Assembly (NCBI GenBank): GCA_046351615.1
Contig: JAXLYF010000011.1
Coordinates: forward strand, 10,882 to 74,881
Direction: 5' to 3'
Source: Polyangia bacterium
GTDB taxonomy: Bacteria > Myxococcota_A > Polyangia > Palsa-1104 > JAEUJZ01
DNA length: 64,000 bases
This document shows positions 30,608 through 56,034 of the stretch, one piece after another (positions within the stretch are counted from its first letter, which is position 1; every line of letters begins with the position of its first letter). The notes under the pieces are model-generated. The model did no database searches and was not told the origin of the DNA. It saw only the letters and a program-made list of their open reading frames with translations. Both the position numbers and the translations under genes were made by a program.

Positions 30608-31465
30608 TTACTTGAGCGGAATCGTCAGGCCAAGCTGTAGGCTGGCGGGCATAACGCTGATGGGGAAGCAGACCTCGCCGTCGAGCTTGTCGCAGTCGGA
30701 TCGGCGGGACAGCACGATGGGCGTGACGATGGCGGCGGCGACTCCGCTGGCTCCGACGGCGGCGAGCGTCCACACCCACCAGCGGGAATACCAGCGCTTT
30801 TCGGTCTTGAAGACGGCTTCTTCGCGGCGCTTTTGCTCGGGCTGGATTTCGAGGATGAGGTCGCGATCGTACTGCTCTCCAGCGACGGTGGCGACGCTCC
30901 AGGTCTGCTCGAAGTAGCCGATGCGACGGACGCGAACGACGTGGGGACCGGGACGTAGCTCTAGCTCTAGCGGGGTTTCGCCTCGAAGATCTTCGTCGAC
31001 AAAGACCTGAGCGCCGGGGACATCGCTCGATACCTTGAGGATGGCGAGCAGCGGCGTAAGCTCCACCTCGACGGCAACCATGCGGCCTTCGATCGCGGTA
31101 AAATCGGAGCTGAAGGTCGAATAGCCTCGGCGGCTGATCACGATCTGGTGCGGTCCGGGCGCGAGCGCGGTGCGAGGCGGGAGCGGGGTGATTCCGATCA
31201 GCTTTCCGTCGATGCGAACCTCTGCTTTGGGGGGCGCACCAAGGAGCGCAAACGCGGTCTCGTTTTGCTTGGCTTCGCTTGGGACGGGCGCACCAGATCG
31301 GGTCGCAGGCTGATCGGCAGCGACGGGAGCGGGCGCACCAGACTGGGCCCAGACGGGCAGCGCGGGCACAAGCAGCGTCAGTGCACAGGCGACAGCGAGT
31401 CCGGTTCGGTGGGAAAACCGCCAGCGATCGTGCGTCCGTTCGGAGCGACCCATGCGTGCGGGCAT
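30608..31465 (-). CDS. PEGA-domain protein with signal peptide and C-terminal TM anchor
   Basis: Two PEGA-like modules (EVRIDGKLIGITP...GPHQIVISRRGY and QVFVDEDLRGETP...GPHVVRVRRIGY); signal LAVACALTLLVPALPVWAQ; C-terminal TM WWVWTLAAVGASGVAAAIV. Confidence 0.7.
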   Translation of the reverse strand: MPARMGRSERTHDRWRFSHRTGLAVACALTLLVPALPVWAQSGAPAPVAADQPATRSGAPVPSEAKQNETAFALLGAPPKAEVRIDGKLIGITPLPPRTALAPGPHQIVISRRGYSTFSSDFTAIEGRMVAVEVELTPLLAILKVSSDVPGAQVFVDEDLRGETPLELELRPGPHVVRVRRIGYFEQTWSVATVAGEQYDRDLILEIQPEQKRREEAVFKTEKRWYSRWWVWTLAAVGASGVAAAIVTPIVLSRRSDCDKLDGEVCFPISVMPASLQLGLTIPLK

Positions 31466-31493
31466 CAGTGATTATTTTGTCATGTTGGTAATG

Positions 31494-31510
31494 AATCTCA
31501 CAATGAGATT
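31494..31510. promoter_or_regulatory. Perfect 7-bp inverted repeat AATCTCA-caa-TGAGATT in the AT-rich divergent promoter region between the PEGA gene and the A/K/D-rich gene
   Basis: Read directly; surrounding 120 bp is unusually AT-rich (ttattttgtcatgttggtaatg..., ttaattggtaagataaattactttaaattg). Confidence 0.3.
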
Positions 31511-31657
31511 GCAGCTCCGTCCCTAGGTGGGATTGTCAGCACTTGTCGGCGTTGTCTATTAATTGGTAAGATAAATTACTTTAAATTGCGTTCCTCCTCT
31601 GGGAGGGCGGGCGAGGACAGTGTTCGCGGGGACGCAGCGGCACTGTCGGGGGGACCG

Positions 31658-32185
31658 ATGGCGGACATCAAGCGTGAGATCCGAACGCTGGGGCAGCGGC
31701 TCTCGGGGCTGACGGCGGGCAACAAGTATACGTTTGTGCTCAAGCGGCCCAATGTGCGCGTCGACGTGGTCAATGCCGAGCGCGCGATTGAGCTTTCTTC
31801 GACGCAAGTGAGTGCGATTCGCAAGCTGCTGGCGGACCTGGAGCAGGCTCGCGACGATGCGATGCGCGGCAGCGTCGATTCGGCCAAGGGCAAGCTGTCG
31901 GCGGCGCGGGCGGTGGCCAAAGACATCGTCAAAGCGGTGTCGGATGCCAAAGAGTTTGCGCTGCGAGCGACGGAAGATGCCAAAGACGCGCATGCCGATG
32001 TCAAAGATGCGTATTCCGCCGCGAAAGATGGCGCAGAGCATGCCGTCGGAGTGGCCGAAAACCTGATGACGGGCCTGGGCGACGTGGTGAAGGCGGTGGC
32101 AGCGCTGGTGATCGAGGCCGAGACGAGCGCGCCTCCAGCGACGGCACCGAGCACGGCAACGGGAAGTCCGCCAAGTGCTCAGTAG
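31658..32185 (+). CDS. Small Ala/Lys/Asp-rich helical protein (175 aa) of unknown function
   Basis: Start at MADIKREIRTLGQ; repeated DAKD/AKD motifs (SDAKEFALRATEDAKDAHADVKDAYSAAKDGAEH), predicted amphipathic helices; Pro/Thr/Ala-rich tail. Confidence 0.55.
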   Translation: MADIKREIRTLGQRLSGLTAGNKYTFVLKRPNVRVDVVNAERAIELSSTQVSAIRKLLADLEQARDDAMRGSVDSAKGKLSAARAVAKDIVKAVSDAKEFALRATEDAKDAHADVKDAYSAAKDGAEHAVGVAENLMTGLGDVVKAVAALVIEAETSAPPATAPSTATGSPPSAQ

Positions 32186-32231
32186 CGACGGGCGGGGCGC
32201 TTCGACAAATCGCTAGATACGGGGAATCGCG

Positions 32232-35200
32232 ATGGACGTAAATCAGCAGCTTGCTTCGGTTCGATCGGATGTGGACAAGGTCAGCAAAAAGACCATCGAC
32301 GAGCTGAACAAGGTCGCCGCCGAGGGACTTCAGACGGTTCAAAACGTCGCCGCTGGCGTGGAAAAAGTGCAGGGCAAGGTCGCCGCCGACGCGAAGACGG
32401 CGCTGTCGGAGGCCAAGACGGCGGTCGAAAAGGCCAAGTCGGACGTCAAGCAGGCGGTCGAAAAGGTCAAAAAGGTCGTCGACAACGCGCAGCAGTCGGT
32501 GCAAAAGACGGCAGCGTCGGGCGCGCTCGGTGTGATCGGCAAGATCCAGGGCGCGGTAACGAAGATCACCGGGGCGATCTCGTCGTACAAAGACACGATC
32601 GTCAACGCGATCGACAAGGTGAAGTCGACGGTGGCGGGGGTCGTCGGGCCGCTGATCGACAAGGCAAAGGCGGCGCTGGCGAACATCGAGGCGAGGCTGC
32701 GACAGCTCGTCGAGATGGCAATGGCGGCGTTTGCGGACATCAAAGCGAAGGTCGAAAAGGTGATCGCGGATGTCTCGACGTGCTTTGAGGTGCTGAGCAC
32801 GGCGGGTCCGGCGGCGTTTGAGCACGCGAAGCAGGCGATCGCGGCGGCGAAAGAAGCGGCGCAGGCGGCAAGCAAGCGTGACTTTTTGCTGGCGAAGAAC
32901 CGAGCGGAAGACGCGCAAAAAGCAGCGATGTCGGCGGTGAGCGAGGGTCAGCAGTGCTTCGATGCGATCAAGCGGCTGATCGGCGGCCTGGCAGTGGCTG
33001 CGGATGGTCTGTCGTCGAGCTTGAAGCGGCATCTGGAAGCGGCTCAGTCGGCGGCGAAGGAAGCGCTGGCTGCGACGCGCGAAGATGTGACGGGCGTGGT
33101 GTCGCAAGCGAAGGCGGGCGCGGCAGAGATTCGTGGTGCGGTGGACGCGGGCGTCAGTGAGATCTCGACGGCGACGCAGGCTACGGCGCAGAAGATCTCG
33201 CAGATTGTGACGGTGACGGCGAGCGCAGCGGCGAAGCAAGCGGTGGATACGGCGCGCAGCATCGTGTCGGAGATCGAGAGCACGGCGGGCGAGCTGCGAG
33301 GGATCGCGCTGGAGACGATGAGCAAGGTGAGCGAGACGGCTCATCAGCTGGACGTGCCGGGTCCGTCGGTGGATGATCTGCAAAAGACGGTGACGGACGC
33401 GATGTCGCAGCAGGACGACGCGCGGACGAAGCTGCAAAAGATTCAGCAGCTTCAGGGCAAGCTGGCTGGGCTGTCGTGGGCAGAGCTGGGTCCGGTCGGT
33501 CAAGAAGTCCAGGCCGAGGTAAACAAGATCGTCGGTGCGGGTCAGCGGACGCTCGATTCGGCGCGCAGCTTTGCGGGCAGCGTCAAGAGCACGGTGACGC
33601 AGCTTGGATCGGACGTGACGACGGCGATCACCCAGCGGGTGGATCAGTGGAAAGGCGTCGGTGAGTCGGCGCAGAAGCTGTTTAACGAAACCAAGGACAA
33701 GGTCAAAAAGCACGTCGACGAGATCAAGGCGGAGATCGACTCGATCATCAAAGATGCGCAAAAGTGCGTCGATGAGCTGAAAAAGTCCGTCGAGGACTTG
33801 GTCCAGAGCGTAAAAGACGGCATCGAGAAGGCAAAGAACCTCGATGTGAGCGGCGCGATGGACGTGGTGGTGAAGGCGAAGAACCTGTTCGAGACAGGCA
33901 AGCGTCACTGGGACACGATGCGCGGTCACTTCGAGAAGATGAAGGCGCACGTTCTGTCGGTGAAAGACACGGTCGACGGGGTGGTCGGTCAAGCGGGCGA
34001 CGTGATCGAGCAGGCGAAAGGTGCGTTCCAGAGCACGATCGATGCGCCAAAGGAAGTGGCGGGGCTGGTGAAGTCGGCGTCGGAAAAGCTGCTCGGGGAC
34101 GCCAATCAGACGATGGCGACGGCGCAGGCCGAGTTCAAGACGGCGATGGCGGGCGCGAGCAAGCTGCTGGATCTGGCGAGCTGTACTTCGTCGTCGACGG
34201 TGCAGATGGGAATTTCGGCGGCGAGCAGCCTGGCGCAGAGCGCGGTCAACGCGGGCAAGTCGGCGATGGCGGCGGGTCAAGGCGTGATGGCGACGGCGAT
34301 GAGCGCGGTCGGTGTGTTCGACGAAAACGCGCGAAAGCAGGCGGCCAAGGCGTGTGACTCGGCGATGGATGCAGCGAAGTCGGCGCTCAAGGCAGTAGAA
34401 GACGCTGCGAAGGCGACGGACAAGGTCGCAAGTGGCGATGCGGCGGGGGCTCAGCAAGCGGCGGCGCAGGTCGAACAAAAAGCGGCGGACGCGGCGGGTC
34501 AAGCAGCGAAGGCGCAGAAAGAAGCGAGCGCGGCGGAACAGAACGCGAAGCAAGCGGCGGCGGATTCCACCAATCCCGATGCGGTGGAAAAGAAGCAGCA
34601 GGAAAAGAAGGGCGAAGCGGGCGCGAAAAAAGACGGCGCGCAGGCGGATGCCAAAAAAGACGGCGCGAAGGCGGGCGACGAAAAGAAAGACGCTGCGGAC
34701 AGCAAGGGCGCGGGCGACGAAAAGAAAGACGCTGCGGGCGACGGCAAAGCGGACGCGAAGGCGGATGGCGCGAAGGACGGGGCTCCTGGAGCGGATGCGA
34801 AGGGAGACGGCAAAGCGGACGCGAAGGCGGACGCGAAAGCAGACGGAGCGAAAGACGGGGCGCCTGGAGCGGATGCGAAGGGAGACGGCAAAGCGGACGC
34901 GAAGGCGGACGCGAAGGCGGATGGCGCGAAGGACGGGGCTCCTGGAGCGGATGCGAAGGGAGACGGACTGCCTGGAGCGGACGCGAAGGGAGACGGAGCG
35001 AAGCTTCCTGAAGGAAAAGGAGCGGACGCAAAGGGAGACGGACTACCCGGAGCGGACGCGAAGGGAGACGGAGCGAAGCTTCCTGAAGGAAAAGGAGCGG
35101 ACGCAAAGGGAGACGGACTGCCCGGAGCGGACGCAAAGGGAGACGGAGCGAAGCTTCCTGAAGGAAAAGGAGCGGACGCAAAGGGAGACGGACTGCCCGG

Positions 35201-35771
35201 AGCGGACGCGAAGGGAGACGGAGCGAAGCTTCCTGAAGGAAAGGGAGCAGAGGGCGGGAAGCTTCCAGAAGGAAAGGGAGCAGAGGGCGGGAAGCTTCCA
35301 GAAGGAAAGGGAGCAGAGGGCGGGAAGCTTCCAGAAGGAAAGGGAGCAGAGGGCGGGAAACTTCCAGAAGGAAAGGGAGCAGAGGGCGGGAAGCTTCCAG
35401 AAGGAAAGGGAGCAGAGGGCGGGAAGCTTCCTGAAGGAAAGGGAGCAGAGGGCGGGAAGCTTCCTGAAGGAAAGGGAGCAGAGGGCGGGAAGCTGCCGGG
35501 ACGCAGTCAGCCTGCTCCGGCTGGCGGACAGCCAGGAGGTGCTCCAGCGGGTGATGCGAAGAGCGCGGCTCAGCCTGTTCCGTCAGCACCGGGAAATGCG
35601 CCTGCGGGTCGGGATAACGGCGGAATTCTGTCGAATGCGGGCAAGGCGGGTGGGGCGGCTCCAGCAGGAGGCACAGCGGCGGGCGGCAAGTCGTCGGCAG
35701 CCGGTGGCAGCGCCAAGGATGCGGCCAAGAAGACCGATCCGCTCAGCAAGCGTCCAGTGTGGAAACCGTAA
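32232..35771 (+). CDS. Giant (1179 aa) Ala/Lys/Val/Gln-rich alpha-helical repeat protein with highly repetitive Gly/Asp/Lys-rich C-terminus; unknown function
   Basis: First ~800 aa of 11-mer-like amphipathic helix sequence (KVAADAKTALSEAKTAVEKAKSDVKQAVEKVKKVV...); no signal peptide; C-terminus: 20-aa repeats ADAKGDGKADAKADAKADGAKDGAPG x3, 25-aa repeats DAKGDGLPGADAKGDGAKLPEGKGA x4, 11-aa repeats AEGGKLPEGKG x8. Confidence 0.75.
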   Translation: MDVNQQLASVRSDVDKVSKKTIDELNKVAAEGLQTVQNVAAGVEKVQGKVAADAKTALSEAKTAVEKAKSDVKQAVEKVKKVVDNAQQSVQKTAASGALGVIGKIQGAVTKITGAISSYKDTIVNAIDKVKSTVAGVVGPLIDKAKAALANIEARLRQLVEMAMAAFADIKAKVEKVIADVSTCFEVLSTAGPAAFEHAKQAIAAAKEAAQAASKRDFLLAKNRAEDAQKAAMSAVSEGQQCFDAIKRLIGGLAVAADGLSSSLKRHLEAAQSAAKEALAATREDVTGVVSQAKAGAAEIRGAVDAGVSEISTATQATAQKISQIVTVTASAAAKQAVDTARSIVSEIESTAGELRGIALETMSKVSETAHQLDVPGPSVDDLQKTVTDAMSQQDDARTKLQKIQQLQGKLAGLSWAELGPVGQEVQAEVNKIVGAGQRTLDSARSFAGSVKSTVTQLGSDVTTAITQRVDQWKGVGESAQKLFNETKDKVKKHVDEIKAEIDSIIKDAQKCVDELKKSVEDLVQSVKDGIEKAKNLDVSGAMDVVVKAKNLFETGKRHWDTMRGHFEKMKAHVLSVKDTVDGVVGQAGDVIEQAKGAFQSTIDAPKEVAGLVKSASEKLLGDANQTMATAQAEFKTAMAGASKLLDLASCTSSSTVQMGISAASSLAQSAVNAGKSAMAAGQGVMATAMSAVGVFDENARKQAAKACDSAMDAAKSALKAVEDAAKATDKVASGDAAGAQQAAAQVEQKAADAAGQAAKAQKEASAAEQNAKQAAADSTNPDAVEKKQQEKKGEAGAKKDGAQADAKKDGAKAGDEKKDAADSKGAGDEKKDAAGDGKADAKADGAKDGAPGADAKGDGKADAKADAKADGAKDGAPGADAKGDGKADAKADAKADGAKDGAPGADAKGDGLPGADAKGDGAKLPEGKGADAKGDGLPGADAKGDGAKLPEGKGADAKGDGLPGADAKGDGAKLPEGKGADAKGDGLPGADAKGDGAKLPEGKGAEGGKLPEGKGAEGGKLPEGKGAEGGKLPEGKGAEGGKLPEGKGAEGGKLPEGKGAEGGKLPEGKGAEGGKLPEGKGAEGGKLPGRSQPAPAGGQPGGAPAGDAKSAAQPVPSAPGNAPAGRDNGGILSNAGKAGGAAPAGGTAAGGKSSAAGGSAKDAAKKTDPLSKRPVWKP
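34738..35500 (+). repeat. In-frame coding tandem repeats: 60-bp units (x3), 75-bp units (x4), then 33-bp units gaaggaaagggagcagagggcgggaagcttcca (x8-9)
   Basis: Direct reading of DNA 34738-35500; produces long antisense shadow ORFs (34387..35589, 34432..35979). Confidence 0.85.
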
Positions 35772-35845
35772 GGCTTCATCGTCGAGGAACATCGCCGCAG
35801 ATGTGGCACGAGTGGTTCATATCGGACGGAGCGAGGGAGGGCTAG

Positions 35846-36922
35846 ATGCGCTGGCTGCTGAAAGCCTCTGCCGAGGGTCTGTCGCTAGAGCCTGCACCGA
35901 GCTTCGGGAACGCGGCAGATGTCGAGCTGCTGCTGCGTCGGTTTTCGACCAACCGGGCGGCGATGCAGACGCTGCGTGAGGCGGTGCGTACCGTCGATGC
36001 GGCGGTGCAGACGCTGCTTCTGCGTGATGAGGAGATCATTCGCGTGGCGGCGGCTCTGATCGTCGCTGGACGGCTGACGTTGGTTCCTCCGCAGCCTGCG
36101 CCGCTGTTCCCGGTCTTCTACTACAAGGGTGGGGCAAAGGAAGACGAGGGAGAGGAATCGCAGCCAGAGAGCAGCAAGCCCGCCGACAGCAGCAACGATA
36201 CGGCCAAGGTTCCGATCGAGTGGGAGCTGGTGTTTTCAGACGGACCGGCGGTCAAGGGCTTTGTCTCGATGTTCGAGGGGCCCGATGGAAAGCCCCAAAA
36301 GGAGCTGAAGCCCGACGGAAACGGTCATCACAAGCTGGATGACTTTTGGCGACATGATCCGTATGCCGTCACGCTGGTTGGCACTGTCGAGGTGAGCGGA
36401 AAGCTGGAAGATGCCGATGGAAAAGGCATCAAGGACGCGAAGATCACCGTCGAGCCCGTGTATGGCGATGCGGTGATTGCAACCACCGACGGTGGCGGTA
36501 CGTTCAAGGTCAAAGGCTTTGTCGAAGAAGAAGAGTTCGATGTCTTCATCACGGCGGGTGGTGTCGCGATCGAAGGGAAGCTGCAAGACGAGGACGGAAA
36601 AGCCGTAGCGGGTGCGTCGCTGTTGCTGCTGCTGGATGGTGGATCACTCGTATCAGTGGAAACTGGCAAAGATGGAACCTTCACGGTGCCCGGTCGCCTG
36701 CCGGGCGAAGGCTTTTCCGTCGAGGTGGTGGGCGTCAATCCCGGGTTTTCTGCCGAGGGTCAGTTTGTCGATGAAGAGGGCAAGCCGATCGCGGGAGCCA
36801 GTGCGCGGCTTCTGTTCGATGGCGGGCTGACTGTGACGGTTGCCAGCGATGGAGATGGCAAGTTCAAAGTGCCAGGTCTTCTGCCGCAAGAAGGCTATTC
36901 GCTGGAGTTTCTGAGTCGCTAG
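35846..36922 (+). CDS. Protein with three tandem CarboxypepD_reg-like (carboxypeptidase regulatory-like, beta-sandwich) repeats and an unknown ~110-aa N-terminal domain
   Basis: Repeats: VSGKLEDADGKGIKDAKITVEPVYGDAVIATTDGGGTFKVKGF; IEGKLQDEDGKAVAGASLLLLLDGGSLVSVETGKDGTFTVPG; AEGQFVDEEGKPIAGASARLLFDGGLTVTVASDGDGKFKVPG; acidic linker EDEGEESQPESSKPADSS. Confidence 0.65.
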   Translation: MRWLLKASAEGLSLEPAPSFGNAADVELLLRRFSTNRAAMQTLREAVRTVDAAVQTLLLRDEEIIRVAAALIVAGRLTLVPPQPAPLFPVFYYKGGAKEDEGEESQPESSKPADSSNDTAKVPIEWELVFSDGPAVKGFVSMFEGPDGKPQKELKPDGNGHHKLDDFWRHDPYAVTLVGTVEVSGKLEDADGKGIKDAKITVEPVYGDAVIATTDGGGTFKVKGFVEEEEFDVFITAGGVAIEGKLQDEDGKAVAGASLLLLLDGGSLVSVETGKDGTFTVPGRLPGEGFSVEVVGVNPGFSAEGQFVDEEGKPIAGASARLLFDGGLTVTVASDGDGKFKVPGLLPQEGYSLEFLSR

Positions 36923-36958
36923 CAGCGTCGCTCTGTTGCTCAGATGCGGGCGCGTGGA

Positions 36959-36987
36959 CAAAAGAGTCATGGAAAAGGACTCTTTTG
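36959..36987 (+). terminator. AT-rich perfect palindrome CAAAAGAGTC-atggaaaag-GACTCTTTTG (10-bp stem) 37 bp after the 35846..36922 stop; candidate bidirectional terminator or protein-binding site
   Basis: Read directly; conspicuous in a 65% GC genome. Confidence 0.35.
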
Positions 36988-37293
36988 GCGGCAGGCTGTG
37001 GTCCGTTTGGGAGTCTGCTTGGGAGTCCGCGTCAGAAGTGCGCAGGAGGCCCTGTGATGAGCCCAGTTGTGCGTCCAGTTGTGCGTCGTTTTGGGGGCTT
37101 ATCATTCGCTGCATGCGGGTGAGAGATCCTTCTTCAATGGACGGCCATGAAGGCTGCGGTGACACCCTGTAGGAATCGGGCGCACCGTCGCGCAGGCGGA
37201 TTGTGAGTACAGTTCTCAACTGCATCGCGAACGCAAACAATCTTGCGCGCATAGCGTCCGCTTCCCGCTTCCATACACTCGGTACATGGCGCT

Positions 37294-37299
37294 ATAATG
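37294..37299 (+). promoter_or_regulatory. TATAAT hexamer ~25-35 bp upstream of the likely tssJ start; candidate -10 element for the T6SS operon
   Basis: ggcgcTATAATgtgacc; weak -35 TTCCAT 18 bp upstream. Confidence 0.2.
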
Positions 37300-37322: not shown

Positions 37323-37784
37323 GTGCTTGTTGTGTGGCTCAGCCAGGGCGGACAGAGAGCGACCAAGGGACTGCTTCTGCTGGTCGTCCTTTTGTCCTGT
37401 CTGTGCGGAGGCTGTGCAAGTCATCCGTGGAAGATGCAGATGACGATCGCCACCGACGCAAACAACAACTCTCCGGTGCTGATTTCCGTGGTGCTTCCCA
37501 AGAGCCAACCGCTGTTTAAAAAGCTGCTGGATATGACGGCGAAGCAGTGGTTTACGCAGCGGGAACAGCTGCTGCGCGATCATCGGCGAGAGCTGGAAGA
37601 GACGTACTTTGAGTTCATTCCGGGACAGCAAGTTCCCGAGATCAATCGCAAAGTTTCGAGCAGTGTGAGCCAAGGGATTCTGTTTGTGAACTACCAGACT
37701 CCGGGATCGCATCGCTATACCTTCGACACAAACCAGGCGCTCAAGATCAGCTTTGCTCAGCAGAGTGTGAACTTGAGCCAGTAA
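37323..37784 (+). CDS. tssJ: Type VI secretion lipoprotein TssJ (SciN/VasD family)
   Basis: Lipoprotein signal KGLLLLVVLLSCLCGGCAS then TIATDANNNSPVLISVVLPKSQPLFKKLLDMTAKQWF, matching TssJ pattern (LNpd..gr.sPv.vrvYqLks...F..ADF); the ORF track begins at ATG 37203 but a 45-aa pre-signal extension is unlikely, so start placed at in-frame GTG 37323 (or 37332). Confidence 0.6.
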   Translation: MLVVWLSQGGQRATKGLLLLVVLLSCLCGGCASHPWKMQMTIATDANNNSPVLISVVLPKSQPLFKKLLDMTAKQWFTQREQLLRDHRRELEETYFEFIPGQQVPEINRKVSSSVSQGILFVNYQTPGSHRYTFDTNQALKISFAQQSVNLSQ

Positions 37785-37802
37785 TGGGAAGTAGGAATCG
37801 GA

Positions 37803-39143
37803 ATGCCGAGCGCGCATGATCTTCCTCCGCAGATTCAGTGGCACGAAGGAATGCTGCTGGCTCCGCAGCACTTTCAGCAGATGGTGCAGCGGACGGAAAA
37901 GCTTCTTCACTACCATGTGAGTCTGGGGCTTCCGTATCAGTTTGGCGTGACGCGGCTGCGCTATGAATCGACGCAGCTTTTTACGGGAACGCTGCGTGTT
38001 ACAGAGCTGGAAGCGGTGCTTCCCGATGGCTTGGTGGTGTCGTTTAAGACCGGCCCCGCGGCAGAGCTGCAAGTGGATCTGAAAGCGCATGCAGAGAGCG
38101 CGAAGCATTCCCCGATTCCTGTCTACTTGGTGGTGCCGATTGAGCGGACTGGAGGCAGCAAAGGGGAAGGGGATCTGGGTCGGTTTCTGTCGATTCCCGG
38201 TGATGAGGTCGATGACGAGGTCAGTGGTGGGCGTCCGCTGCGGATTCCGCGACTGAAGCCTCGGCTGCGGCTGATTGCGGGGACAGAGTCTCCTCCTCCT
38301 CGCTTTGTGGCGCTGCCGCTGCTTGCGGTGGTCTACAAAAACGGCGCGTTTGTTCCTGCGGACTACATTCCGCCGCTGATTCGCGTGGAAGTGGACTCTC
38401 CGCTGGGTGAGCTGTGTGCGCAGGTGAGCAGTCTGATTCGGGCCAAAGCGACGTATCTGCTGGAAGTGATTCGGTCTCCGGCGATTACGACCAAGCCACA
38501 AGCGATTGAAGAAAATCGCAGGCTGCTTTCACAGCTGGTGCTGAATCTTCCGCCGTTTGAAGCGCTGCTGGCGACGGGAACGAGTCACCCCTATTCGCTG
38601 TATGTTGCGCTGACTGCGGTGGCCGGAAGCGTGGCAGGAGTCGGCAATCAGCTGATGCCTCCGGTCTTTCCTGCGTACGATCACTTGAACCTGCGGCGAT
38701 CGTTTGCGGAGGTTGTTCAGTTTGTGAATCAGTCGCTCAGCGACGGAATTTCTGAAGCGTTTACGGCGCTTCCGTTCCGCAATGAAAACAACCTGTTCGC
38801 ACTTCAGTTTGAAAGGGAGTGGACGCGTCGCACGGTGGTGATGGGCTTCAAGGGGGCTCCAGGGGCCACGGATCAGCAGATCACAGAGTGGGTGACGAGC
38901 AGTCTGATCGGAACCGCAAGTCGCTTCAAAGTGCTGCGTGAGCGACGACTGCTGGGGGCCACACGAACTCCTATTGATCGAGTCGAAGGTCTGGTGGCCA
39001 CGCGCGGAATGCTGCTGTTTCAGCTTCAGCTCAACCCAGAGTTTATTGTGCCGAGCGAGCCGCTGGTGATCGGAAACTCTGTGGAAAAACCACCGGGCAT
39101 TCGTCCGGCAGAGGCCTACTTATATGTTGCAAACAAAGAGTAG
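37803..39143 (+). CDS. tssK: Type VI secretion baseplate protein TssK
   Basis: N-terminus IQWHEGMLLAPQHFQQ (TssK signature W.EGM.L.PQHFQQ), 446 aa. Confidence 0.9.
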   Translation: MPSAHDLPPQIQWHEGMLLAPQHFQQMVQRTEKLLHYHVSLGLPYQFGVTRLRYESTQLFTGTLRVTELEAVLPDGLVVSFKTGPAAELQVDLKAHAESAKHSPIPVYLVVPIERTGGSKGEGDLGRFLSIPGDEVDDEVSGGRPLRIPRLKPRLRLIAGTESPPPRFVALPLLAVVYKNGAFVPADYIPPLIRVEVDSPLGELCAQVSSLIRAKATYLLEVIRSPAITTKPQAIEENRRLLSQLVLNLPPFEALLATGTSHPYSLYVALTAVAGSVAGVGNQLMPPVFPAYDHLNLRRSFAEVVQFVNQSLSDGISEAFTALPFRNENNLFALQFEREWTRRTVVMGFKGAPGATDQQITEWVTSSLIGTASRFKVLRERRLLGATRTPIDRVEGLVATRGMLLFQLQLNPEFIVPSEPLVIGNSVEKPPGIRPAEAYLYVANKE

Positions 39144-39202
39144 GAACATGCTGGGCGTCCGCAGTGTCGACGGATGGAGCGTCAACGTAACGAGGGCGCA
39201 AC

Positions 39203-40111
39203 ATGGCGAGTGAGTCCTCTGATCAGCTGTTCTTGGTGGACTACTTCCGCGAGTTCTACGCGGCGGTCCTGCATCACCGCATGCAGATCGAGCGCTCGCA
39301 GCTTCCACCCGCCGAAGAGGACAGCATTGAGATTCGCGAAGCCGACATCTTGGCCGAAGAAAAGATACCGGGTGCGGAGCAGTCACAGATTGCGCCCGAC
39401 ATTGTGCAGGCGCTCCTGATTGAGCTGATGGAGTCCCAACAGCAAGCAATTCAGCGACGGGGAGATCCGCGCGAACAGAAGCGATTTCGAGACATTCAGT
39501 ACGTGATGTCCGCGATGGCTGATGAAGTCATGCTGAGCATCGAGTGGATCGGAAAAGAGTACTGGAGCACGCATCTATTGGAAGAGCGGCTGTATGGTAC
39601 GCACGATGCGGGTACGCGCTTTTTCGACAACCTGGACTCTCTGCTTCAGAACAGAGACGCAACGCGCGCGGATGTGCTTGCGGTGTATCTGCTCGCAGTG
39701 TCACTGGGATTCCGTGGCAAGCATCGCAGCGTAAACAGTGCGGCGCAGATTGCGCACTATCGAAACCAAGCCTACGTCACGCTGTTTCAGCGCAGTCCGG
39801 CGCTACCAGAAAGCGCTCCGCTGTTTCCGCAAGCGTACGCGCACACGCTCGATGGACAGACACCAAGCTGGCTGCCACAGCTTCGTCCGTGGCTACTATC
39901 ACTGGTCGGCGTTGCGGTGTTCTATCTGCTGGTTGCGCATGTGATCTGGGATCGGCGCTCGACCTCGGTTGGGAATCGCTTGGAAGAGATTCTGCAACAC
40001 AAAGACAGCCCAGACGTAAACACACCGGCGCGCTCTGTGAACAGCTCTATGGAGCCGAAAGCAGAAGCCGCTACTGCAACGGCGAGCAGTGTAACCGTTC
40101 GAAAGAACTAG
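39203..40111 (+). CDS. tssL: Type VI secretion membrane protein TssL (DotU/IcmH family), no peptidoglycan-binding extension
   Basis: DotU-like core with LAVSLGFRGKHR (cf. LGF.G.Y motif) and single C-terminal TM PWLLSLVGVAVFYLLVAHVIW. Confidence 0.8.
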   Translation: MASESSDQLFLVDYFREFYAAVLHHRMQIERSQLPPAEEDSIEIREADILAEEKIPGAEQSQIAPDIVQALLIELMESQQQAIQRRGDPREQKRFRDIQYVMSAMADEVMLSIEWIGKEYWSTHLLEERLYGTHDAGTRFFDNLDSLLQNRDATRADVLAVYLLAVSLGFRGKHRSVNSAAQIAHYRNQAYVTLFQRSPALPESAPLFPQAYAHTLDGQTPSWLPQLRPWLLSLVGVAVFYLLVAHVIWDRRSTSVGNRLEEILQHKDSPDVNTPARSVNSSMEPKAEAATATASSVTVRKN

Positions 40112-40178
40112 GAATTTGTCGTGGATGTTTCGATGTGCTGCAAAGTGATAGGATGAATCATTCAATGCACCTGTCCGT

Positions 40179-41267
40179 GTGACAGGTTGTGATGGGGGAA
40201 CTGTGCCAAACCGTGTGCTTGGCTGGCTGATACTCTGTGTATCGGTACTGCTGCTGTGTTCAGCGCCAGCGCTTTGTCAGGAAGAGAGTGCCGCAACCTA
40301 TGAAGAGGAGGGCGCACGGCTGTTCCTGAGCAAGAGCTATGAGGGTGCGATCAAGCAGTTTACCCAAGCGTATCGACTCGATCCGAAGCCGCAGTATCTG
40401 TTTAACATCGGTCAGTCCTATCGGAAGCTGGGTCTGGCTGCGGAAGCGACAGAGTACTATCAGCGCTATCTGCACGATGAACAGAAGGTGGATCCAACCA
40501 TCTACGCAGATCTGACGACGTACATCGATCAGTACTACGCATCGCAAGAGCGTGGTGGGAGTCGTCCCAAGTCCAAGAGTGAAGCCGCAGAGCCTGCGCC
40601 GATGCTGGCCGCAGAGGAAATCGCCGATGCGGAAGAGCTGATTGCGCAGTTTGTTCGGGACTACCGAGCGGGCAATCAAGCGGTGGCCAATGAGATCATG
40701 GATCAGCTCAAGCAAGTGCTGCTGGTCCGTGGCGATCCGATCCTGATGTATCACATCGCGAACGGATACGATCAGGTCAAGAAGCGCAAGGAAGCCCTGG
40801 AATACTATCGTCGCTTCGTTGCGGTAGAGACTGCGGACCCTCGTCTTCGTCGTCGATCATTTGAACGGATTGCCCTTCTTACGCCTGCGCCGCCTGGTCA
40901 GAAGTATCTGTGGCCGAGCTTGGCGCTGGCGATTCCGGGACTTGCGGGTGTGCTGACCGGAGTGGCCCTTGCGGTTCAATCCGGGGACAACTTCCAGCAG
41001 TTCCTCAATGAAGCAGATGAACAGAAGAAGCGGGAACTCCGCGACAAAGGAGTCGGTCTGTCTATCGGATCGGTGACCTCCTATGCCATCGGTGGTGCCC
41101 TACTGGCCGGCGCAGGTGCGTTTGCGATTGTTGCCCTTAAAAAGGGAGTCCGTCAAAACGCGGAAGAGAAACGGACGGAACCCTCGCGCACAACGAAAAG
41201 CACCCTGACCGGATCGCTTCTGCCGCTGCCTGGCGGCGTGGGTCTGTCCTTGGGAGGGAATTTCTAA
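40179..41267 (+). CDS. TPR-repeat protein with signal peptide and two C-terminal TM helices, inserted between tssL and tssM
   Basis: TPR-like AIKQFTQAYRLDPKPQYLFNIGQSYRKLGLAAEATEYYQRYL; hydrophobic LWPSLALAIPGLAGVLTGVALAV and IGGALLAGAGAFAIVAL. Confidence 0.65.
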   Translation: MTGCDGGTVPNRVLGWLILCVSVLLLCSAPALCQEESAATYEEEGARLFLSKSYEGAIKQFTQAYRLDPKPQYLFNIGQSYRKLGLAAEATEYYQRYLHDEQKVDPTIYADLTTYIDQYYASQERGGSRPKSKSEAAEPAPMLAAEEIADAEELIAQFVRDYRAGNQAVANEIMDQLKQVLLVRGDPILMYHIANGYDQVKKRKEALEYYRRFVAVETADPRLRRRSFERIALLTPAPPGQKYLWPSLALAIPGLAGVLTGVALAVQSGDNFQQFLNEADEQKKRELRDKGVGLSIGSVTSYAIGGALLAGAGAFAIVALKKGVRQNAEEKRTEPSRTTKSTLTGSLLPLPGGVGLSLGGNF

Positions 41268-42715
41268 TGCTTAAGACTTCGCTTCTGTCTGCATTCCTAT
41301 CGGTGGGGCTGCTGGCCAGCACGGGCTGTACGCTGACCATGAACTATCAGCAGTGTAGCCAAGACAGCGACTGTACGGCGGCGGATGGAACGCCGGGCTA
41401 TTGCTCGTCGGATCAGCTCTGTCTGCCGAACACTCCGCTTGAGAGTCTGTGTACGATTACGATTCCTGATGCACCGTCTCCCAATGCGGTTCATCTGGGT
41501 GCGCTGCTGGATCTGCGTGACAAAAACGGACGACTGACCGAAGCGCATCGACTGCTCGCGCTGAAGCTGGGTGTCAAGCAGATTAACGATCTGGTGCAGC
41601 TGGATGGATCGCGTCCGCTGGCGATTGATGTCTGCAACGTGGGCGTGTCTGCGATCGACGCTGACAATGCGACCAAGATCCTGATCGAACAGCGCAATGT
41701 CGTGGCGATCATCGGACCGAACACGGCGTCCGCTGCGACCAACATGATCGGTCGAATCAAAGCGGCTGGCGTTCCCACGATCTCGCCTGCGATCATGGAC
41801 AGCGGAATTGCTGATGCAGCAAGTCAGGGTCTGTTTTATCGCTTGGCTCCCGTCGAAAGAGAGCAAGGCCTTCAGCTGGTTCGTGAGCTGGTGACGCTGT
41901 CTGGCGGAAAGAGCACCGCGCAGCTTGGACTTCTGTCTGTCACCGATTCCTATGGTGAAAACATTCGTCGCAAGTTCACTCCTGAGTGGCAGCGCCGTGA
42001 TCCGATCAACAACAAGACGGATCGATTCATTTCGTACAAAGACAACGATGCAAACCTGCTGAGCGTTACGACCAAGACGCTGCTTGATGCGAAGCCGAGC
42101 TTCGTGGTGCTGATTCCGGGATCGAACAGTCATCTGGTGGTGGGAGGTTTTGCGGATCTTCCGTTTGATCCGAAGAACCCCGGCTCCTTCGAGAGCACGA
42201 CCCAGGTGCTGGCTTCTTCCAGTGCGCGGACCGGAGACTTGATCAGGATGGCGCGGACCGGAGAAGACAAGATGAAGAATCATCTGTCGCGCATCACCGG
42301 AGTCGCTCCGCTGAGCTTTATTGATAGTCAAGAAGGCGCAGATTTTAAGTCGAGCTTCACGGCCACAAATCCGGGTCTGGCGCTCGAAGATGACTTCATG
42401 GTGGGCTACACCTACGACGCGCTGTTTGTGCTGGGTGCGGCCTCTGCTACGTTCAAGGGAGCGAGCCGACCGGATCAAATCCTGTCTGTTCTGCGACGCC
42501 TCAATGGCAACGCCAACTCGCTGTCTTTGACGCCGCGACTGTTCAACGAAACGGTTCAGAAGCTGGCACAGCAGCCGACCGATCCGTTCACTCTGCTTGG
42601 TGTTACAGGTGCGATTCGCTTCCAGACAGATGGCAGCCGAGATCCGGTTCTGCTCGAGCGCTGGAAGATCGATATCACCACCGGAGCGTACGTAAACACT
42701 CCGGCCAACATGTAA
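41267..42715 (+). CDS. Lipoprotein with periplasmic-binding-protein type I (LIVBP/ANF-receptor-like) fold, inside the T6SS locus
   Basis: Lipobox LLASTGCT; HLGALLDLRDKNGRL...GVKQINDL...VVAIIGPNTASAATNMIGRIKAAGVPTISP resembles Leu/Ile/Val-binding protein family N-lobe. Confidence 0.6.
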   Translation: MLKTSLLSAFLSVGLLASTGCTLTMNYQQCSQDSDCTAADGTPGYCSSDQLCLPNTPLESLCTITIPDAPSPNAVHLGALLDLRDKNGRLTEAHRLLALKLGVKQINDLVQLDGSRPLAIDVCNVGVSAIDADNATKILIEQRNVVAIIGPNTASAATNMIGRIKAAGVPTISPAIMDSGIADAASQGLFYRLAPVEREQGLQLVRELVTLSGGKSTAQLGLLSVTDSYGENIRRKFTPEWQRRDPINNKTDRFISYKDNDANLLSVTTKTLLDAKPSFVVLIPGSNSHLVVGGFADLPFDPKNPGSFESTTQVLASSSARTGDLIRMARTGEDKMKNHLSRITGVAPLSFIDSQEGADFKSSFTATNPGLALEDDFMVGYTYDALFVLGAASATFKGASRPDQILSVLRRLNGNANSLSLTPRLFNETVQKLAQQPTDPFTLLGVTGAIRFQTDGSRDPVLLERWKIDITTGAYVNTPANM

Positions 42716-42739
42716 CGCCAGGCACCTAGGACGCGTGAC

Positions 42740-46843: not shown

Positions 46844-46852
46844 GGATGCGCG

Positions 46853-47971
46853 ATGTCTGAGATGCCACCGATTGATCTGGAATCGCTACTACAGCCGATC
46901 TCGGAGCGCGAGCCGTCCGGGGAGTGGCTGCGCTATGAGGGAACGTATGATGCGCTGACAGAAGCGCGTCGCGAAGAAGACGACAGCCTTCCGCAAGGTG
47001 TCTGGCAGATCAAGGTCAAGCGTGCGGATTTTGCGAAGGTTTCGCAACTTGGCCAAAAAGCGCTGCGTGAGCGAAGCAAAGATCTTCAGATCGCGGTCTG
47101 GCTGTGTGAAGCCTGGCTGAAGCTGCATGGCGTGCCCGGAATGACGCTGGGAATTCAGCTCTGTACGCAGCTTTTGTCGCGCTTTTGGCCTTCTCTGTAT
47201 CCGCTGGTGGAAGAAGGGGATGCATCGTATCGGATGGCTCCGCTGGAGCTTCTGTCGAGCAAGATCTCGGTGCGTCTCAAAGAGATTTCTCTGACGGAGC
47301 CGTACGGTGAAAAGTCGGCGCTGTCTTGGATCGACTGGGAGCGTGCGCTGCGCAATGAAAAGGCTTCCAGCGCAGGCGATGAGATCGTGCCAGCCGTGTT
47401 CTTGGCCGCTGCGGCAAACACAAGTGGTCGATTCTATTCAGCGCTGTACACAGAGCTGACTGCGCTGGATGATGCAGCGCGTGCGCTGGAAGATCTGGTG
47501 GTTGAAAAGCTTCCCGATCAGCCAGCGATCTTGCGAGTGCTTCGCAACTTGGTCCGCGATATCCAGGCCTTGATTGCGCAGTACACCCCAGCGCCCGCAG
47601 CCCAGGTTGTGCCTGAGCCAGTGGCCCAGGATGGCAGCCGCAGCGACGGTGAAACAGACCTTGGTGAGCCTTCGGAGGCCGCGATGCATGGCGATGGATC
47701 ATCGGCAGGTCGCTCCAGTGCCCGGGGCGATGCCCGAGGTGAAGATGTTCCAAATGGCCCGATCCGTAGTCGGGTTCAAGCATATCAACGACTTGTAGAA
47801 GCGGCTGAATACCTTCAGCGCACAGAGCCTCACAGTCCGGTGCCGTACCTTGTGAAGCGGGCCGTGGCTTGGGGTAACATGGACCTGATCCAACTTCTTG
47901 GTGAGCTAGTAGCCGAGGGGGGAGATCGCCAGACGATCTATGCGCTGCTGGGGGTAAAGGGGCCGCAGTAG
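46853..47971 (+). CDS. tssA: Type VI secretion protein TssA (ImpA_N domain)
   Basis: ImpA_N signature LLQPISEREPSGEWLRYEGTYDALTEARRE; precedes tssBC. Confidence 0.8.
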   Translation: MSEMPPIDLESLLQPISEREPSGEWLRYEGTYDALTEARREEDDSLPQGVWQIKVKRADFAKVSQLGQKALRERSKDLQIAVWLCEAWLKLHGVPGMTLGIQLCTQLLSRFWPSLYPLVEEGDASYRMAPLELLSSKISVRLKEISLTEPYGEKSALSWIDWERALRNEKASSAGDEIVPAVFLAAAANTSGRFYSALYTELTALDDAARALEDLVVEKLPDQPAILRVLRNLVRDIQALIAQYTPAPAAQVVPEPVAQDGSRSDGETDLGEPSEAAMHGDGSSAGRSSARGDARGEDVPNGPIRSRVQAYQRLVEAAEYLQRTEPHSPVPYLVKRAVAWGNMDLIQLLGELVAEGGDRQTIYALLGVKGPQ

Positions 47972-48579: not shown

Positions 48580-48591
48580 GGAGGGGTTGCC

Positions 48592-56033: not shown

Positions 56034-56034
56034 C

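What the first reader, a model, noticed from the sequence alone, without database searches (positions are those of the whole stretch)
31466..36990. Uncharacterised three-gene module immediately upstream of the T6SS: two Ala/Lys/Asp-rich amphipathic-helix proteins (one 1179 aa with 33/60/75-bp coding tandem repeats) plus a triple CarboxypepD_reg-repeat protein
The 175-aa and 1179-aa proteins consist almost entirely of A/K/V/Q/D/E 11-mer-like amphipathic helical sequence, reminiscent of apolipoprotein/LEA/perilipin/phasin-type proteins. They have no signal peptide and no recognisable catalytic domain. The giant protein ends in about 250 residues of perfect tandem repeats (AEGGKLPEGKG x8; DAKGDGLPGADAKGDGAKLPEGKGA x4). 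The downstream protein has three beta-sandwich CarboxypepD_reg-like repeats. The unit has its own AT-rich promoter containing a perfect palindrome and is followed by a palindromic terminator. Possibilities include lipid-body or granule coat proteins (myxobacteria make lipid bodies), a nucleoid or cytoskeletal scaffold, or T6SS-associated cargo.
Basis: partly seen in the sequence, partly recalled or inferred. Interest (0 to 1): 0.75.

Follow-up and report, generated by a model that had tools for sequence, protein, structure and literature searches.

The report
Giant helical cargo module beside T6SS
Three real, conserved genes of unknown family in uncultured Polyangia (a small protein, a 1179-residue all-helical protein with a repetitive floppy tail, and a beta-sandwich protein) most likely form a unit loaded onto the spike of a type VI secretion system, because distant copies of the same trio carry a spike-tip (PAAR) domain fused to the beta-sandwich protein.

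Summary
The three ORFs exist as described: 175 aa, 1179 aa and 358 aa, upstream of a complete T6SS cluster. All are under purifying selection (dN/dS 0.09-0.15). Corrections: the coding repeats are 78, 75 and 33 bp, not 60. The hydrophobic periodicity is 3.60-3.61 residues, not an 11-mer. The "terminator" is a window-specific inverted repeat.

The trio is a rare, autonomous module. I found about 50 loci, all from metagenomes or uncultured Myxococcales/Polyangia MAGs, and none in viral contigs.

There are two types.
- **Type A** (this window): order small, big, beta-sandwich. It lies next to the T6SS only in close relatives.
- **Type B** (31-46% identity): order beta-sandwich, small, big. It lies away from any T6SS, and its beta-sandwich protein has an N-terminal PAAR domain (Pfam 33-66 bits, cutoff 27).

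The giant protein has a ~785-residue all-helical domain whose length is almost fixed: three indels at 32% identity. A charge-neutral disordered tail of 159-394 residues and a short C-terminal motif follow it.

No known family passes its threshold. Tape-measure and apolipoprotein hits are textural, since the reversed sequence also hits tape-measure models.

Best reading (about 0.5): a new non-enzymatic T6SS spike-cargo module. What the cargo does in a target remains inferred.

The parts
30608..31465 (-). Divergently transcribed membrane protein. It has a signal peptide, two PEGA domains, a C-terminal transmembrane helix and a 33-residue cytoplasmic tail. It is a neighbour of all type-A modules and absent from type B. 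It may be an accessory or immunity candidate; that is inference only.
   Evidence: Pfam PEGA 70.5 bits. Present next to the trio in L001-L006, L009-L011 and L025, including L006 where no T6SS is adjacent. No PEGA hit in type-B loci.
31466..31657 (+). Intergenic or promoter region of the trio. It is more AT-rich than the flanks. It holds a sigma-70-like site at 31477-31504, a 7+7 palindrome at 31494-31510, the conserved arm CTTGTCGG at 31542-31549, and a Shine-Dalgarno sequence GGGGGGAC just before the ATG.
   Evidence: The palindrome is window-specific. Relatives carry CCGACAAG..CTTGTCGG instead.
31658..32185 (+). Small partner protein, 175 aa. It has an invariant N-terminal motif (K.E.R..GQR.SGL.AG..YTFVLKRP), then helices and a low-complexity tail. 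It always lies immediately upstream of the giant protein. Proposed role: chaperone or adaptor; cytoplasmic immunity is less likely.
   Evidence: Alignment A4. No family in Pfam, NCBIfam, PADLOC, PHROGs or PDB. dN/dS 0.09-0.10. NCBI names it 'hypothetical protein U0745_14820 [Polyangia bacterium]'.
32232..34586 (+). Giant protein, helical domain, residues 1-785. All alpha-helical, amphipathic, no transmembrane segment. It ends at the conserved ADSTNPDAVEKKQ.
   Evidence: AlphaFold2 predicts all helix, with helices of 91-155 residues, but pLDDT is only 52. A 3.60-3.61-residue periodicity has power 487 against about 10 in shuffles, and appears in type A and type B. Identity within type A is 68-87%, and 31-34% to type B over 784 residues. 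There are only three indels, of 3, 7 and 1 residues. dN/dS 0.09-0.13.
34587..35726 (+). Giant protein, disordered tail, residues 786-1165. G/A/K/D/P/E-rich, with 35% charged residues and net charge close to 0. It contains three nearly perfect coding tandem arrays at 34749-34966 (78 bp), 34944-35248 (75 bp) and 35225-35494 (33 bp).
   Evidence: Tail length ranges from 159 to 394 residues in seven homologues, and net charge per residue always lies between -0.013 and +0.024. Short-read contigs break here. A 1073-aa allele or collapsed assembly exists in L045.
35727..35771 (+). Conserved C-terminal peptide KKTDPLSKRPVWKP plus the stop codon. The type-A signature is [ST]K[KR]PxW[KR]P at the very end. 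It is a candidate docking motif on a flexible tether.
   Evidence: Alignment. Type B has instead a GLF[DE]Q[IL]KDLA-like motif near its C-terminus.
35846..36922 (+). Beta-sandwich carrier protein, 358 aa, net charge -23. Residues 1-95 form a helical domain specific to type A. An acidic, serine-rich linker follows. From about residue 123 to the end come four prealbumin/CarboxypepD_reg-like sandwiches, the first degenerate and carrying an invariant PDG.GHH...FWRHD.Y.
   Evidence: Pfam, alignment A3, AlphaFold2, charge. Alignment A6 shows that the N-terminal domain is replaced by PAAR in type B. NCBI name: 'carboxypeptidase-like regulatory domain-containing protein'.
36959..36987 (.). A 10-nt inverted repeat (CAAAAGAGTC N9 GACTCTTTTG) after the last gene. 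It is window-specific and not a canonical terminator.
37229..37298 (+). Conserved promoter-like block of the T6SS operon: GAACGCAAACAATC ... CGCTTCCATAC ... TATAAT. It separates the trio from the T6SS as a transcription unit.
   Evidence: Conserved in L002, L004, L010 and L025, while the sequence between it and the trio is not.
37323..57665 (+). Adjacent T6SS. In order: a 153-aa lipoprotein at the tssJ position (no Pfam hit), TssK, TssL, a TPR protein, a periplasmic-binding-like protein, TssM, TssA, TssB, TssC, Hcp, TssE, TssF, TssG, VgrG (53997-56033), a MORN-repeat protein, and a DUF4280 PAAR-like tip (57276-57665).

Best explanation
The trio is an autonomous cargo module for a contractile-injection spike; in this genome that means the neighbouring T6SS.

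The beta-sandwich protein is the carrier. Its prealbumin-like domains hold the giant helical protein. In sister modules the same carrier is itself the PAAR tip of the spike. In this window the PAAR domain has been replaced by a small helical domain, which would have to dock on the VgrG/DUF4280 spike.

The 175-aa protein, always translated just before the giant protein, acts as its dedicated chaperone or adaptor. It would cover the long hydrophobic stripe until loading.

The giant protein is the passenger. It is an elongated bundle of very long amphipathic helices, followed by a charge-neutral disordered tether that ends in a short docking peptide.

**Shown:**
- the genes are real and constrained;
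- the trio stays together when gene order and genomic context change;
- PAAR is fused to the carrier in type B;
- the window copy lies next to a T6SS;
- no enzymatic or known toxin domain is present.

**Inferred:**
- physical binding between the three proteins;
- T6SS-dependent export;
- the activity in the target. I take this to be non-enzymatic and surface-active: the helices open onto a membrane or lipid surface, as exchangeable apolipoproteins do.
For: 1. Domain-fusion link. In every type-B locus with enough upstream sequence (L029-L039), the homologue of the 358-aa protein begins with a PAAR domain. PF05488 scores are L036 65.9, L031 63.8, L039 54.8 and L029 33.0 bits, against a cutoff of 27. 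tblastn finds it in 11 loci. The alignment shows a clean swap of the N-terminal domain ahead of a shared beta-sandwich region.
2. The trio stays linked across 31-46% identity even though gene order is permuted: small-big-carrier against carrier-small-big. Flanks differ completely: T6SS, Cu-oxidase, MscS channel, CBM_21, kinases.
3. In the window and its close relatives the module abuts a complete T6SS with VgrG and a DUF4280 PAAR-like tip.
4. From the literature: TTR-like domains on VgrG mediate loading of cargo effectors (PMC7376260). PAAR proteins carry cargo, and toxins are encoded about three times more often downstream of PAAR genes than upstream. Myxobacteria hold up to 35 PAAR genes, and only 62.3% of PAAR genes have a vgrG within 20 genes (PMC8651086). 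Adaptor genes usually lie next to their effectors (PMC10433429).
5. None of the three proteins has a signal peptide, although beta-sandwich domains of this clan are usually extracytoplasmic. That fits export by a non-Sec route.
6. Purifying selection acts on all three genes.
Against: - The window's own carrier has no PAAR, and nothing shows that its helical N-domain binds VgrG or DUF4280.
- T6SS adjacency is seen only in one closely related clade, which amounts to one or two independent observations. The 56%-identical type-A2 loci (L006, L040, L043) and all type-B loci have no T6SS gene within the sequence held.
- PAAR also caps eCIS spikes (PMC8651086), so type-B modules might serve another injector.
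- There is no recognisable toxin domain, no obvious immunity gene and no known adaptor family (DUF4123, DUF1795, DUF2169).
- A 1179-residue passenger with a 390-residue disordered tail has no precedent known to me among T6SS effectors.
- The AlphaFold2 models are of low confidence (pLDDT 52 and 55), so the rod-like fold is only a prediction of secondary structure.
Confidence: 0.5

Rival explanations
1. The trio is a structural or assembly accessory of the injection apparatus rather than a passenger. The giant helical protein, whose length is fixed at about 785 residues (about 118 nm if fully extended, or a 15-25 nm bundle), would act as a ruler, tether or stabiliser of the spike or tube. The carrier would anchor it at the tip.
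For: The length of the helical domain is nearly invariant: three indels in about 790 residues at 32% identity, one of them exactly seven residues. Its sequence texture resembles tape-measure proteins: 8 of 9 PHROG hits are tape-measure families, the best at 5.7e-12. There is no toxin domain or immunity gene. It is as conserved as core T6SS proteins (82-87% against 85% for TssM).
Against: The reversed sequence also hits tape-measure models (3.1e-9). tblastn against 50,697 phage records finds nothing. No relative occurs in viral contigs. PAAR sits on the outside of the spike tip, not in the tube lumen where tape measures lie. Most T6SS, including other myxobacterial ones, lack this protein: an exhaustive HMMER search of 1.84 billion representatives gave 15 hits, and a scan of 185,579 species genomes gave 5 loci. 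Most modules are not next to any injector genes.
Confidence: 0.15
2. The trio has no functional link to secretion. The giant protein is a cytoplasmic amphipathic-helix coat or scaffold, on lipid bodies or storage granules or as a coiled-coil cytoskeleton of the Scy/FilP kind. The beta-sandwich protein is an anchoring partner, and the PAAR fusion in type B is a secondary recruitment.
For: The hydrophobic stripe is continuous, about 160 degrees wide and rich in Ala/Val/Ile. There are sub-threshold matches to exchangeable apolipoproteins in Pfam and PDB. The protein has no signal peptide. A disordered linker followed by a C-terminal peptide is an architecture typical of bacterial scaffold proteins (own knowledge). 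Type-A2 loci lack both a T6SS neighbour and PAAR.
Against: PAAR fusion of the partner protein is hard to reconcile with a purely cytoplasmic role. The periodicity of 3.60 is neither the 3.67 of lipid-coating 11-mers nor the 3.5 of canonical coiled coils. Strict length and sequence conservation are unlike phasins, perilipins or LEA proteins. No phasin or LEA Pfam hit appears even at E 0.1. No lipid or PHA metabolism genes lie nearby.
Confidence: 0.12
3. The trio is a remnant of a phage or phage-like tail module: tape-measure chaperone, tape measure and distal tail protein.
For: PHROG tape-measure hits. The order small protein, long helical protein, beta-sandwich protein superficially mimics chaperone, tape measure and distal tail protein.
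Against: The reversed-sequence control shows that the hits are textural. There is no match in phage genomes or viral contigs. No phage genes lie in any flank. Gene order is different in type B. The genes are under purifying selection and widely maintained as a trio.
Confidence: 0.03

Closest known systems
TTR-domain-mediated cargo loading on T6SS spikes (EAEC VgrG1-TTR with Tle1; P. aeruginosa VgrG2b-TTR with Tle3; PAAR proteins with C-terminal extensions)
   Same: A prealbumin/transthyretin-clan beta-sandwich is attached to a spike component (PAAR in type B). The gene for a large passenger lies next to it. The modules are often 'orphan', away from the core cluster (PMC7376260, PMC8651086).
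   Different: There are four tandem sandwiches instead of one. In the window the carrier is a separate protein without PAAR or VgrG. The passenger is not a lipase or any recognisable enzyme. No immunity gene is recognisable.
T6SS adaptor/chaperone families Tap/Tec (DUF4123), Eag (DUF1795), DUF2169
   Same: A small cytoplasmic protein is encoded immediately upstream of the presumed effector and co-inherited with it (PMC10433429).
   Different: There is no sequence match to any of these families. The N-terminal motif YTFVLKRP defines a family of its own.
Phage tail tape-measure proteins
   Same: Long, Ala/Lys/Val-rich, all-helical proteins of defined length. HMM-level resemblance: 8 PHROG tape-measure families at E 5.7e-12 to 4.5e-4.
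   Different: The resemblance survives sequence reversal, so it is not evidence of descent. There is no phage context, no BLAST-level match and no hydrophobic or lytic segments.
Exchangeable apolipoproteins and the giant amphipathic helix of perilipin 4
   Same: Hundreds of residues of amphipathic helix with a hydrophobic face rich in small residues. Weak profile matches to ApoA-IV, ApoE and ApoA-I. See 10.1101/276238 for the giant-helix concept.
   Different: The period is 3.60, not 3.67. There is no 11/22/33-mer sequence repeat and no proline punctuation. The domain is highly conserved and of fixed length. All matches are far below family thresholds.
Scy/FilP-type bacterial coiled-coil scaffolds with non-heptad repeats (own knowledge, not tested)
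   Same: Very long helices with mixed 7/11 spacing, giving a periodicity between 3.5 and 3.67.
   Different: No sequence relationship was detected. The phylum and genomic context differ, and the partner protein is fused to PAAR.

Membership tests
T6SS spike-loaded cargo module (PAAR/VgrG + adaptor + effector) | Genetic or physical link to a PAAR or VgrG spike protein | tested here: met
   PAAR is fused to the carrier homologue in type B. The window module is adjacent to a T6SS with VgrG and DUF4280. The window's own carrier lacks PAAR.
T6SS spike-loaded cargo module (PAAR/VgrG + adaptor + effector) | Transthyretin/prealbumin-like adaptor domain | tested here: met
   CarboxypepD_reg 66.6 bits against a cutoff of 32.3, in three stretches. 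AlphaFold2 shows three clear sandwiches.
T6SS spike-loaded cargo module (PAAR/VgrG + adaptor + effector) | Known adaptor/chaperone family (DUF4123, DUF1795, DUF2169) | tested here: not met
   No such Pfam or NCBIfam hit for any of the three proteins at E up to 0.1.
T6SS spike-loaded cargo module (PAAR/VgrG + adaptor + effector) | Recognisable toxin domain with a cognate immunity gene | tested here: not met
   Pfam, NCBIfam, PADLOC, PHROGs and PDB give no toxin domain. No conserved downstream gene exists. The PEGA protein (type A) and gene X (type B) are only speculative candidates.
T6SS spike-loaded cargo module (PAAR/VgrG + adaptor + effector) | T6SS-dependent secretion or delivery | not testable with these tools
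   This needs a secretome or competition assay. The organism is uncultured.
Phage tail tape-measure protein | Specific sequence homology to tape-measure families | tested here: inconclusive
   The true sequence scores 46.1 bits (5.7e-12) and the reversed sequence 37 bits (3.1e-9) against phrog_305. Shuffles give 0 hits. tblastn against phages gives no match.
Phage tail tape-measure protein | Location in a tail morphogenesis module of a phage, prophage or eCIS | tested here: not met
   No relatives in 2.9 million viral contigs. No tail genes in any flank.
Exchangeable apolipoprotein / perilipin / LEA / phasin-type amphipathic coat | Family HMM above the gathering threshold | tested here: not met
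   PF01442 scores 20.9 bits (window) and 44.4 bits (L036) against a cutoff of 90. ApoLp-III scores 19.4 against 36.3. No phasin or LEA hit.
Exchangeable apolipoprotein / perilipin / LEA / phasin-type amphipathic coat | 11-residue (3.67) periodicity or 11/22/33-mer repeats | tested here: not met
   The peak lies at 3.600-3.610 in seven homologues. Power at 3.667 is only spill-over, and power at period 11.0 is not above shuffles.
Exchangeable apolipoprotein / perilipin / LEA / phasin-type amphipathic coat | Binding to lipid or granule surfaces | not testable with these tools
   This needs liposome or droplet binding assays, or localisation.

The most novel reading that the evidence does not exclude
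The giant protein is a new kind of injected effector that works physically rather than enzymatically. It would be an apolipoprotein-like 'unzipping' bundle of 100-150-residue amphipathic helices, delivered on a T6SS spike, which spreads over and extracts or disorganises target-cell membrane lipid. Its charge-neutral, length-variable disordered tail and terminal peptide would act as a tether to the carrier during loading or firing. The 175-aa protein would be a new chaperone class and the four-sandwich protein a new free-standing spike adaptor.
Probability: 0.15. Interest if true: 0.8.

Novelty: new variant of a known kind. Interest (0 to 1): 0.6.

Why it matters
If the reading is right, it adds three unannotated protein families to the T6SS repertoire: a carrier, a chaperone and a giant helical passenger. 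All come from a group of predators (Polyangia of activated sludge) whose T6SS cargo is essentially unknown.

The passenger would be unusual among effectors in four ways:
- it is very large;
- it has no catalytic domain;
- it has no evident immunity gene;
- it is built from helices whose hydrophobic stripe runs straight for up to about 200 residues.

The YTFVLKRP small protein and the PDG.GHH...FWRHD sandwich give simple sequence markers for finding more such modules.

Even if the secretion link fails, a 785-residue helical domain of fixed length, joined to a charge-balanced tail with variable repeat number and a terminal peptide, is a well-defined object for structural study.

Tried and rejected
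- **Family searches.** Pfam, NCBIfam, PADLOC, PHROGs and PDB sequence searches on all three proteins gave nothing above any curated cutoff. The exceptions are CarboxypepD_reg and, in relatives, PAAR.
- **Word-indexed protein search.** It found only one or three relatives for the giant and small proteins, because low-complexity candidates swamped the 8000-candidate list. That apparent 'orphan' status was an artefact. Context look-ups and DNA-pattern scans recovered about 50 loci.
- **Exhaustive HMMER search.** It gave 15 hits, mostly fragments. Two giant archaeal-type helical proteins (P0030, P0031) were judged compositional.
- **Tape-measure homology.** Rejected as evidence of descent after the reversed-sequence control, no phage tblastn hit and no viral contigs.
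- **AlphaFold2.** With the shallow alignments allowed, pLDDT was 52 and 55. Foldseek against PDB returned only generic long-helix proteins (SMC arms; Umb1 at E 3e-3, TM 0.16) and generic Ig-like tandems. These are not used as evidence.
- **Hydrophobic segment.** The uncharged S/A/G-rich stretch at residues 640-700 is not conserved as uncharged in type B, so I dropped a pore-forming hairpin idea.
- **PAAR in the window.** A tblastn and regex search found none in the trio. The only tip protein is DUF4280 at 57276-57665.
- **P0032.** This SpoU methylase joined to the C-terminal half of the small protein looks like a chimeric contig.


Full report

Yes, with corrections. The region holds three same-strand ORFs:
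- 31658-32185, 175 aa from the ATG. A longer TTG-initiated ORF exists, but the conserved Shine-Dalgarno sequence and the alignment of relatives support the ATG.
- 32232-35771, 1179 aa.
- 35846-36922, 358 aa.

Tandem Repeats Finder gives arrays of 78 bp x2.8, 75 bp x4.1 and 33 bp x8.2. There is no 60-bp array. Pfam finds CarboxypepD_reg in three stretches (66.6 bits, cutoff 32.3) in the third protein. It finds nothing above threshold in the other two.

A complete T6SS follows. It runs, in order: a lipoprotein at the tssJ position, TssK, TssL, a TPR protein, a periplasmic-binding-like protein, TssM, TssA, TssB, TssC, Hcp, TssE, TssF, TssG, VgrG, a MORN-repeat protein and a DUF4280 PAAR-like tip.

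All three genes are under purifying selection. dN/dS is 0.09-0.15, compared with 0.03-0.05 for tssK.

**2. How widespread is it?**

The word-indexed protein search suggested an orphan, with a single hit. That was an artefact of low-complexity swamping.

- Homologues of the 358-aa protein led to contigs with the same trio.
- A scan of one genome for each of 185,579 species found five loci. All are uncultured Myxococcales or Polyangia MAGs.
- A metagenome scan with the small-protein alignment found 27 more loci.
- An exhaustive HMMER search of 1.84 billion cluster representatives gave only 15 hits, mostly fragments of the same family.
- No relative occurs in 2.9 million viral contigs or in 50,697 phage records.
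- NCBI annotates the window's proteins as 'hypothetical protein' and 'carboxypeptidase-like regulatory domain-containing protein' of a Polyangia MAG.

The family is real, rare and restricted to one uncultured myxobacterial lineage and its relatives.

**3. Two module types**

*Type A* comprises the window and loci L001-L006, L008-L027, L040-L054. The order is small, big, beta-sandwich, with a divergently transcribed PEGA membrane protein upstream.
- In the window's close relatives (70-95% identity) the T6SS follows directly.
- In the 56%-identical subgroup the downstream neighbours are a Cu-oxidase, an MscS channel or a CBM_21 protein. No T6SS is present.

*Type B* comprises L007 and L028-L039.
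- Identity to the window is 31-34% over 784 residues of the giant protein, E about 1e-126.
- The order is beta-sandwich, small, big.
- No T6SS gene lies within 10 kb.
- An extra conserved upstream gene of 357 aa is present in most loci.

The three genes stay together despite permuted order and unrelated flanks. That is strong evidence for a functional unit. T6SS adjacency is confined to one clade, so by itself it is weak evidence.

**4. The key link**

In every type-B locus with enough sequence, the beta-sandwich protein starts with a PAAR domain.
- PF05488 scores are 65.9, 63.8, 54.8 and 33.0 bits, against a cutoff of 27.
- tblastn detects the domain in 11 loci.
- Literal PAAR motifs are visible in the translation.

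Alignment A6 shows that homology with the window protein begins at about residue 123 (P..W.L.FSDG..VKG) and runs to the C-terminus. The N-terminal part is PAAR in type B and a roughly 95-residue helical domain in type A.

PAAR proteins cap the VgrG spike of T6SS, and also of eCIS, and carry cargo. Toxins are encoded preferentially just downstream of PAAR genes. Myxobacteria have dozens of PAAR genes, many of them away from vgrG (PMC8651086). Transthyretin-like domains on VgrG mediate loading of cargo effectors (PMC7376260).

The family is therefore tied to a contractile-injection spike by domain fusion. In the window it is also tied by position.

**5. Anatomy of the giant protein**

*Helical domain (residues 1-785).*
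- It ends at the conserved ADSTNPDAVEKKQ.
- AlphaFold2 predicts only helix, with helices of 91-155 residues, but at low confidence (pLDDT 52).
- The hydropathy spectrum has one sharp peak at 3.60-3.61 residues. Power is about 487 against about 10 for shuffles. The peak appears in four type-A and three type-B proteins.
- The phase is constant over segments of roughly 90-210 residues, which match the predicted helices.
- Similarity autocorrelation peaks at lags 7, 11, 18, 25, 29 and 36. This is a 7+11 pattern, giving an almost straight hydrophobic stripe about 160 degrees wide, rich in Ala, Val, Ile and Leu.
- Between types A and B (32% identity) there are only three indels, of 3, 7 and 1 residues, and 165 invariant columns. 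This points to a defined, length-constrained fold rather than a loose coating repeat.

*Tail.*
- Its length is 159-394 residues.
- It is G/A/K/D/P-rich in type A and S/A/G/P-rich in type B.
- Net charge per residue always lies within -0.013 to +0.024.

In the window the tail holds nearly perfect DNA repeats. All nine short contigs shown for the same strain end inside it, at residues 883-935. The exact 1179-aa sequence is not in the 15-billion-protein collection. One assembly crosses the region with 1073 aa and fewer copies of every unit. That could be real copy-number variation or short-read collapse.

*C-terminus.* Type A ends in [ST]K[KR]PxW[KR]P. Type B has a GLF[DE]Q[IL]KDLA-like motif instead.

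**6. Known families tested**

- *Tape measure.* Eight of nine PHROG hits are tape-measure families, the best at 5.7e-12. The reversed sequence also hits them at 3.1e-9, while composition, block and register shuffles give no hits. The resemblance is a property of long-range helical texture, not evidence of descent.
- *Apolipoproteins.* Pfam and PDB profile matches are consistent but far below threshold. The periodicity is not 11/3.
- *Phasin, LEA and the DUF4123, DUF1795 and DUF2169 adaptors.* No hits.
- *Foldseek on the low-confidence models.* It returned only generic long-helix and Ig-tandem proteins.

**7. Transcription units**

What is conserved downstream of the trio is a promoter-like block in front of the T6SS: GAACGCAAACAATC ... 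CGCTTCCATAC ... TATAAT at 37229-37298. It precedes a 153-aa lipoprotein gene that most likely starts at GTG 37323. The trio and the T6SS are therefore probably separate transcription units, which agrees with the module's autonomy.

**8. Interpretation**

The best-supported model, at confidence about 0.5, is a spike-cargo module. The beta-sandwich protein is the carrier. It is itself the spike tip in type B and a free-standing adaptor in type A. The small protein is a dedicated chaperone or adaptor for the giant protein. The giant protein is the passenger.

- *Shown:* linkage of the three genes, the PAAR fusion, T6SS adjacency in the window, selective constraint, and the absence of catalytic domains.
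- *Inferred:* the protein-protein contacts, export, and a physical, surface-active mode of action in the target.

Rival readings:
- a structural or ruler-like accessory of the injector (0.15);
- a cytoplasmic coat or scaffold unrelated to secretion (0.12);
- a phage tail remnant (0.03).

The remaining probability covers functions I have not thought of.

**9. Novelty and score**

The kind of system, a spike-loaded T6SS cargo module with a transthyretin-like adaptor, is known. The three protein families, the four-sandwich free-standing carrier and the giant fixed-length helical passenger with a charge-neutral repetitive tail are not described in the libraries and papers I searched. I rate it a new variant of a known kind, with interest 0.6.

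Noticed in passing
window 37229-37298 and 37323-37784: A conserved promoter-like block (GAACGCAAACAATC, CGCTTCCATAC, perfect TATAAT) lies in front of the T6SS in all close relatives. The first T6SS gene is probably a 153-aa lipoprotein starting at GTG 37323 (lipobox LLSC), not the 193-aa ORF from 37203. It has no T6SS-SciN Pfam hit.
   Followed up: partly
window 57276-57665: A DUF4280 (PAAR-like) gene, 116 bits, follows VgrG (53997-56033) and a MORN-repeat protein (56035-57279). A 290-aa helical ORF at 57675-58547 comes next. No ClpV gene was seen between 37.3 and 58 kb.
   Followed up: partly
window 28531-30528 (- strand): The OmpA/thrombospondin-repeat protein upstream has its own coding repeats (AAPANQT x5 and PSAPAA-type runs). 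It differs in length between samples: L018 lacks about 28640-28826.
   Followed up: no
window 31494-31549; L002, L004, L009, L010, L011 intergenic regions: Relatives carry an inverted repeat CCGACAAG ... CTTGTCGG between the PEGA gene and the small gene, a possible operator. The window keeps only the 3' arm (31542-31549) and has a different 7+7 palindrome at 31494-31510.
   Followed up: partly
L036:7635-8708 (also L030-L035, L037-L039): Type-B modules have a fourth conserved gene directly upstream of the PAAR-sandwich gene. It encodes 357 aa with hydrophobic stretches and has no Pfam hit. It is absent from the window and from L029. It could be an immunity protein or a further adaptor.
   Followed up: partly
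L045:3643-6864 compared with window 32232-35771: In the same strain (helical domain 99.9% identical) the giant gene is 1073 aa instead of 1179. It has fewer copies of all three repeat units (2 vs 3, 3 vs 4, 3 vs 8). This is either real copy-number variation or short-read collapse.
   Followed up: partly
P0032 (ENA contig, 309 aa): A SpoU-type methylase is joined to the C-terminal half of a small-protein homologue. This is most likely a chimeric assembly rather than a real fusion.
   Followed up: no
window 6737-15503: Two very large adjacent VIT-VWA proteins (1556 and 1422 aa, the first with C-terminal TPRs) are followed by a ricin-lectin/TSP_3 protein (15559-17016). They are unrelated to the finding.
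   Followed up: no
window 58626-62642: A 1338-aa secreted, cysteine-rich protein with MopE-type metal-binding motifs lies just after the T6SS spike genes. It is a possible further T6SS-associated product.
   Followed up: no
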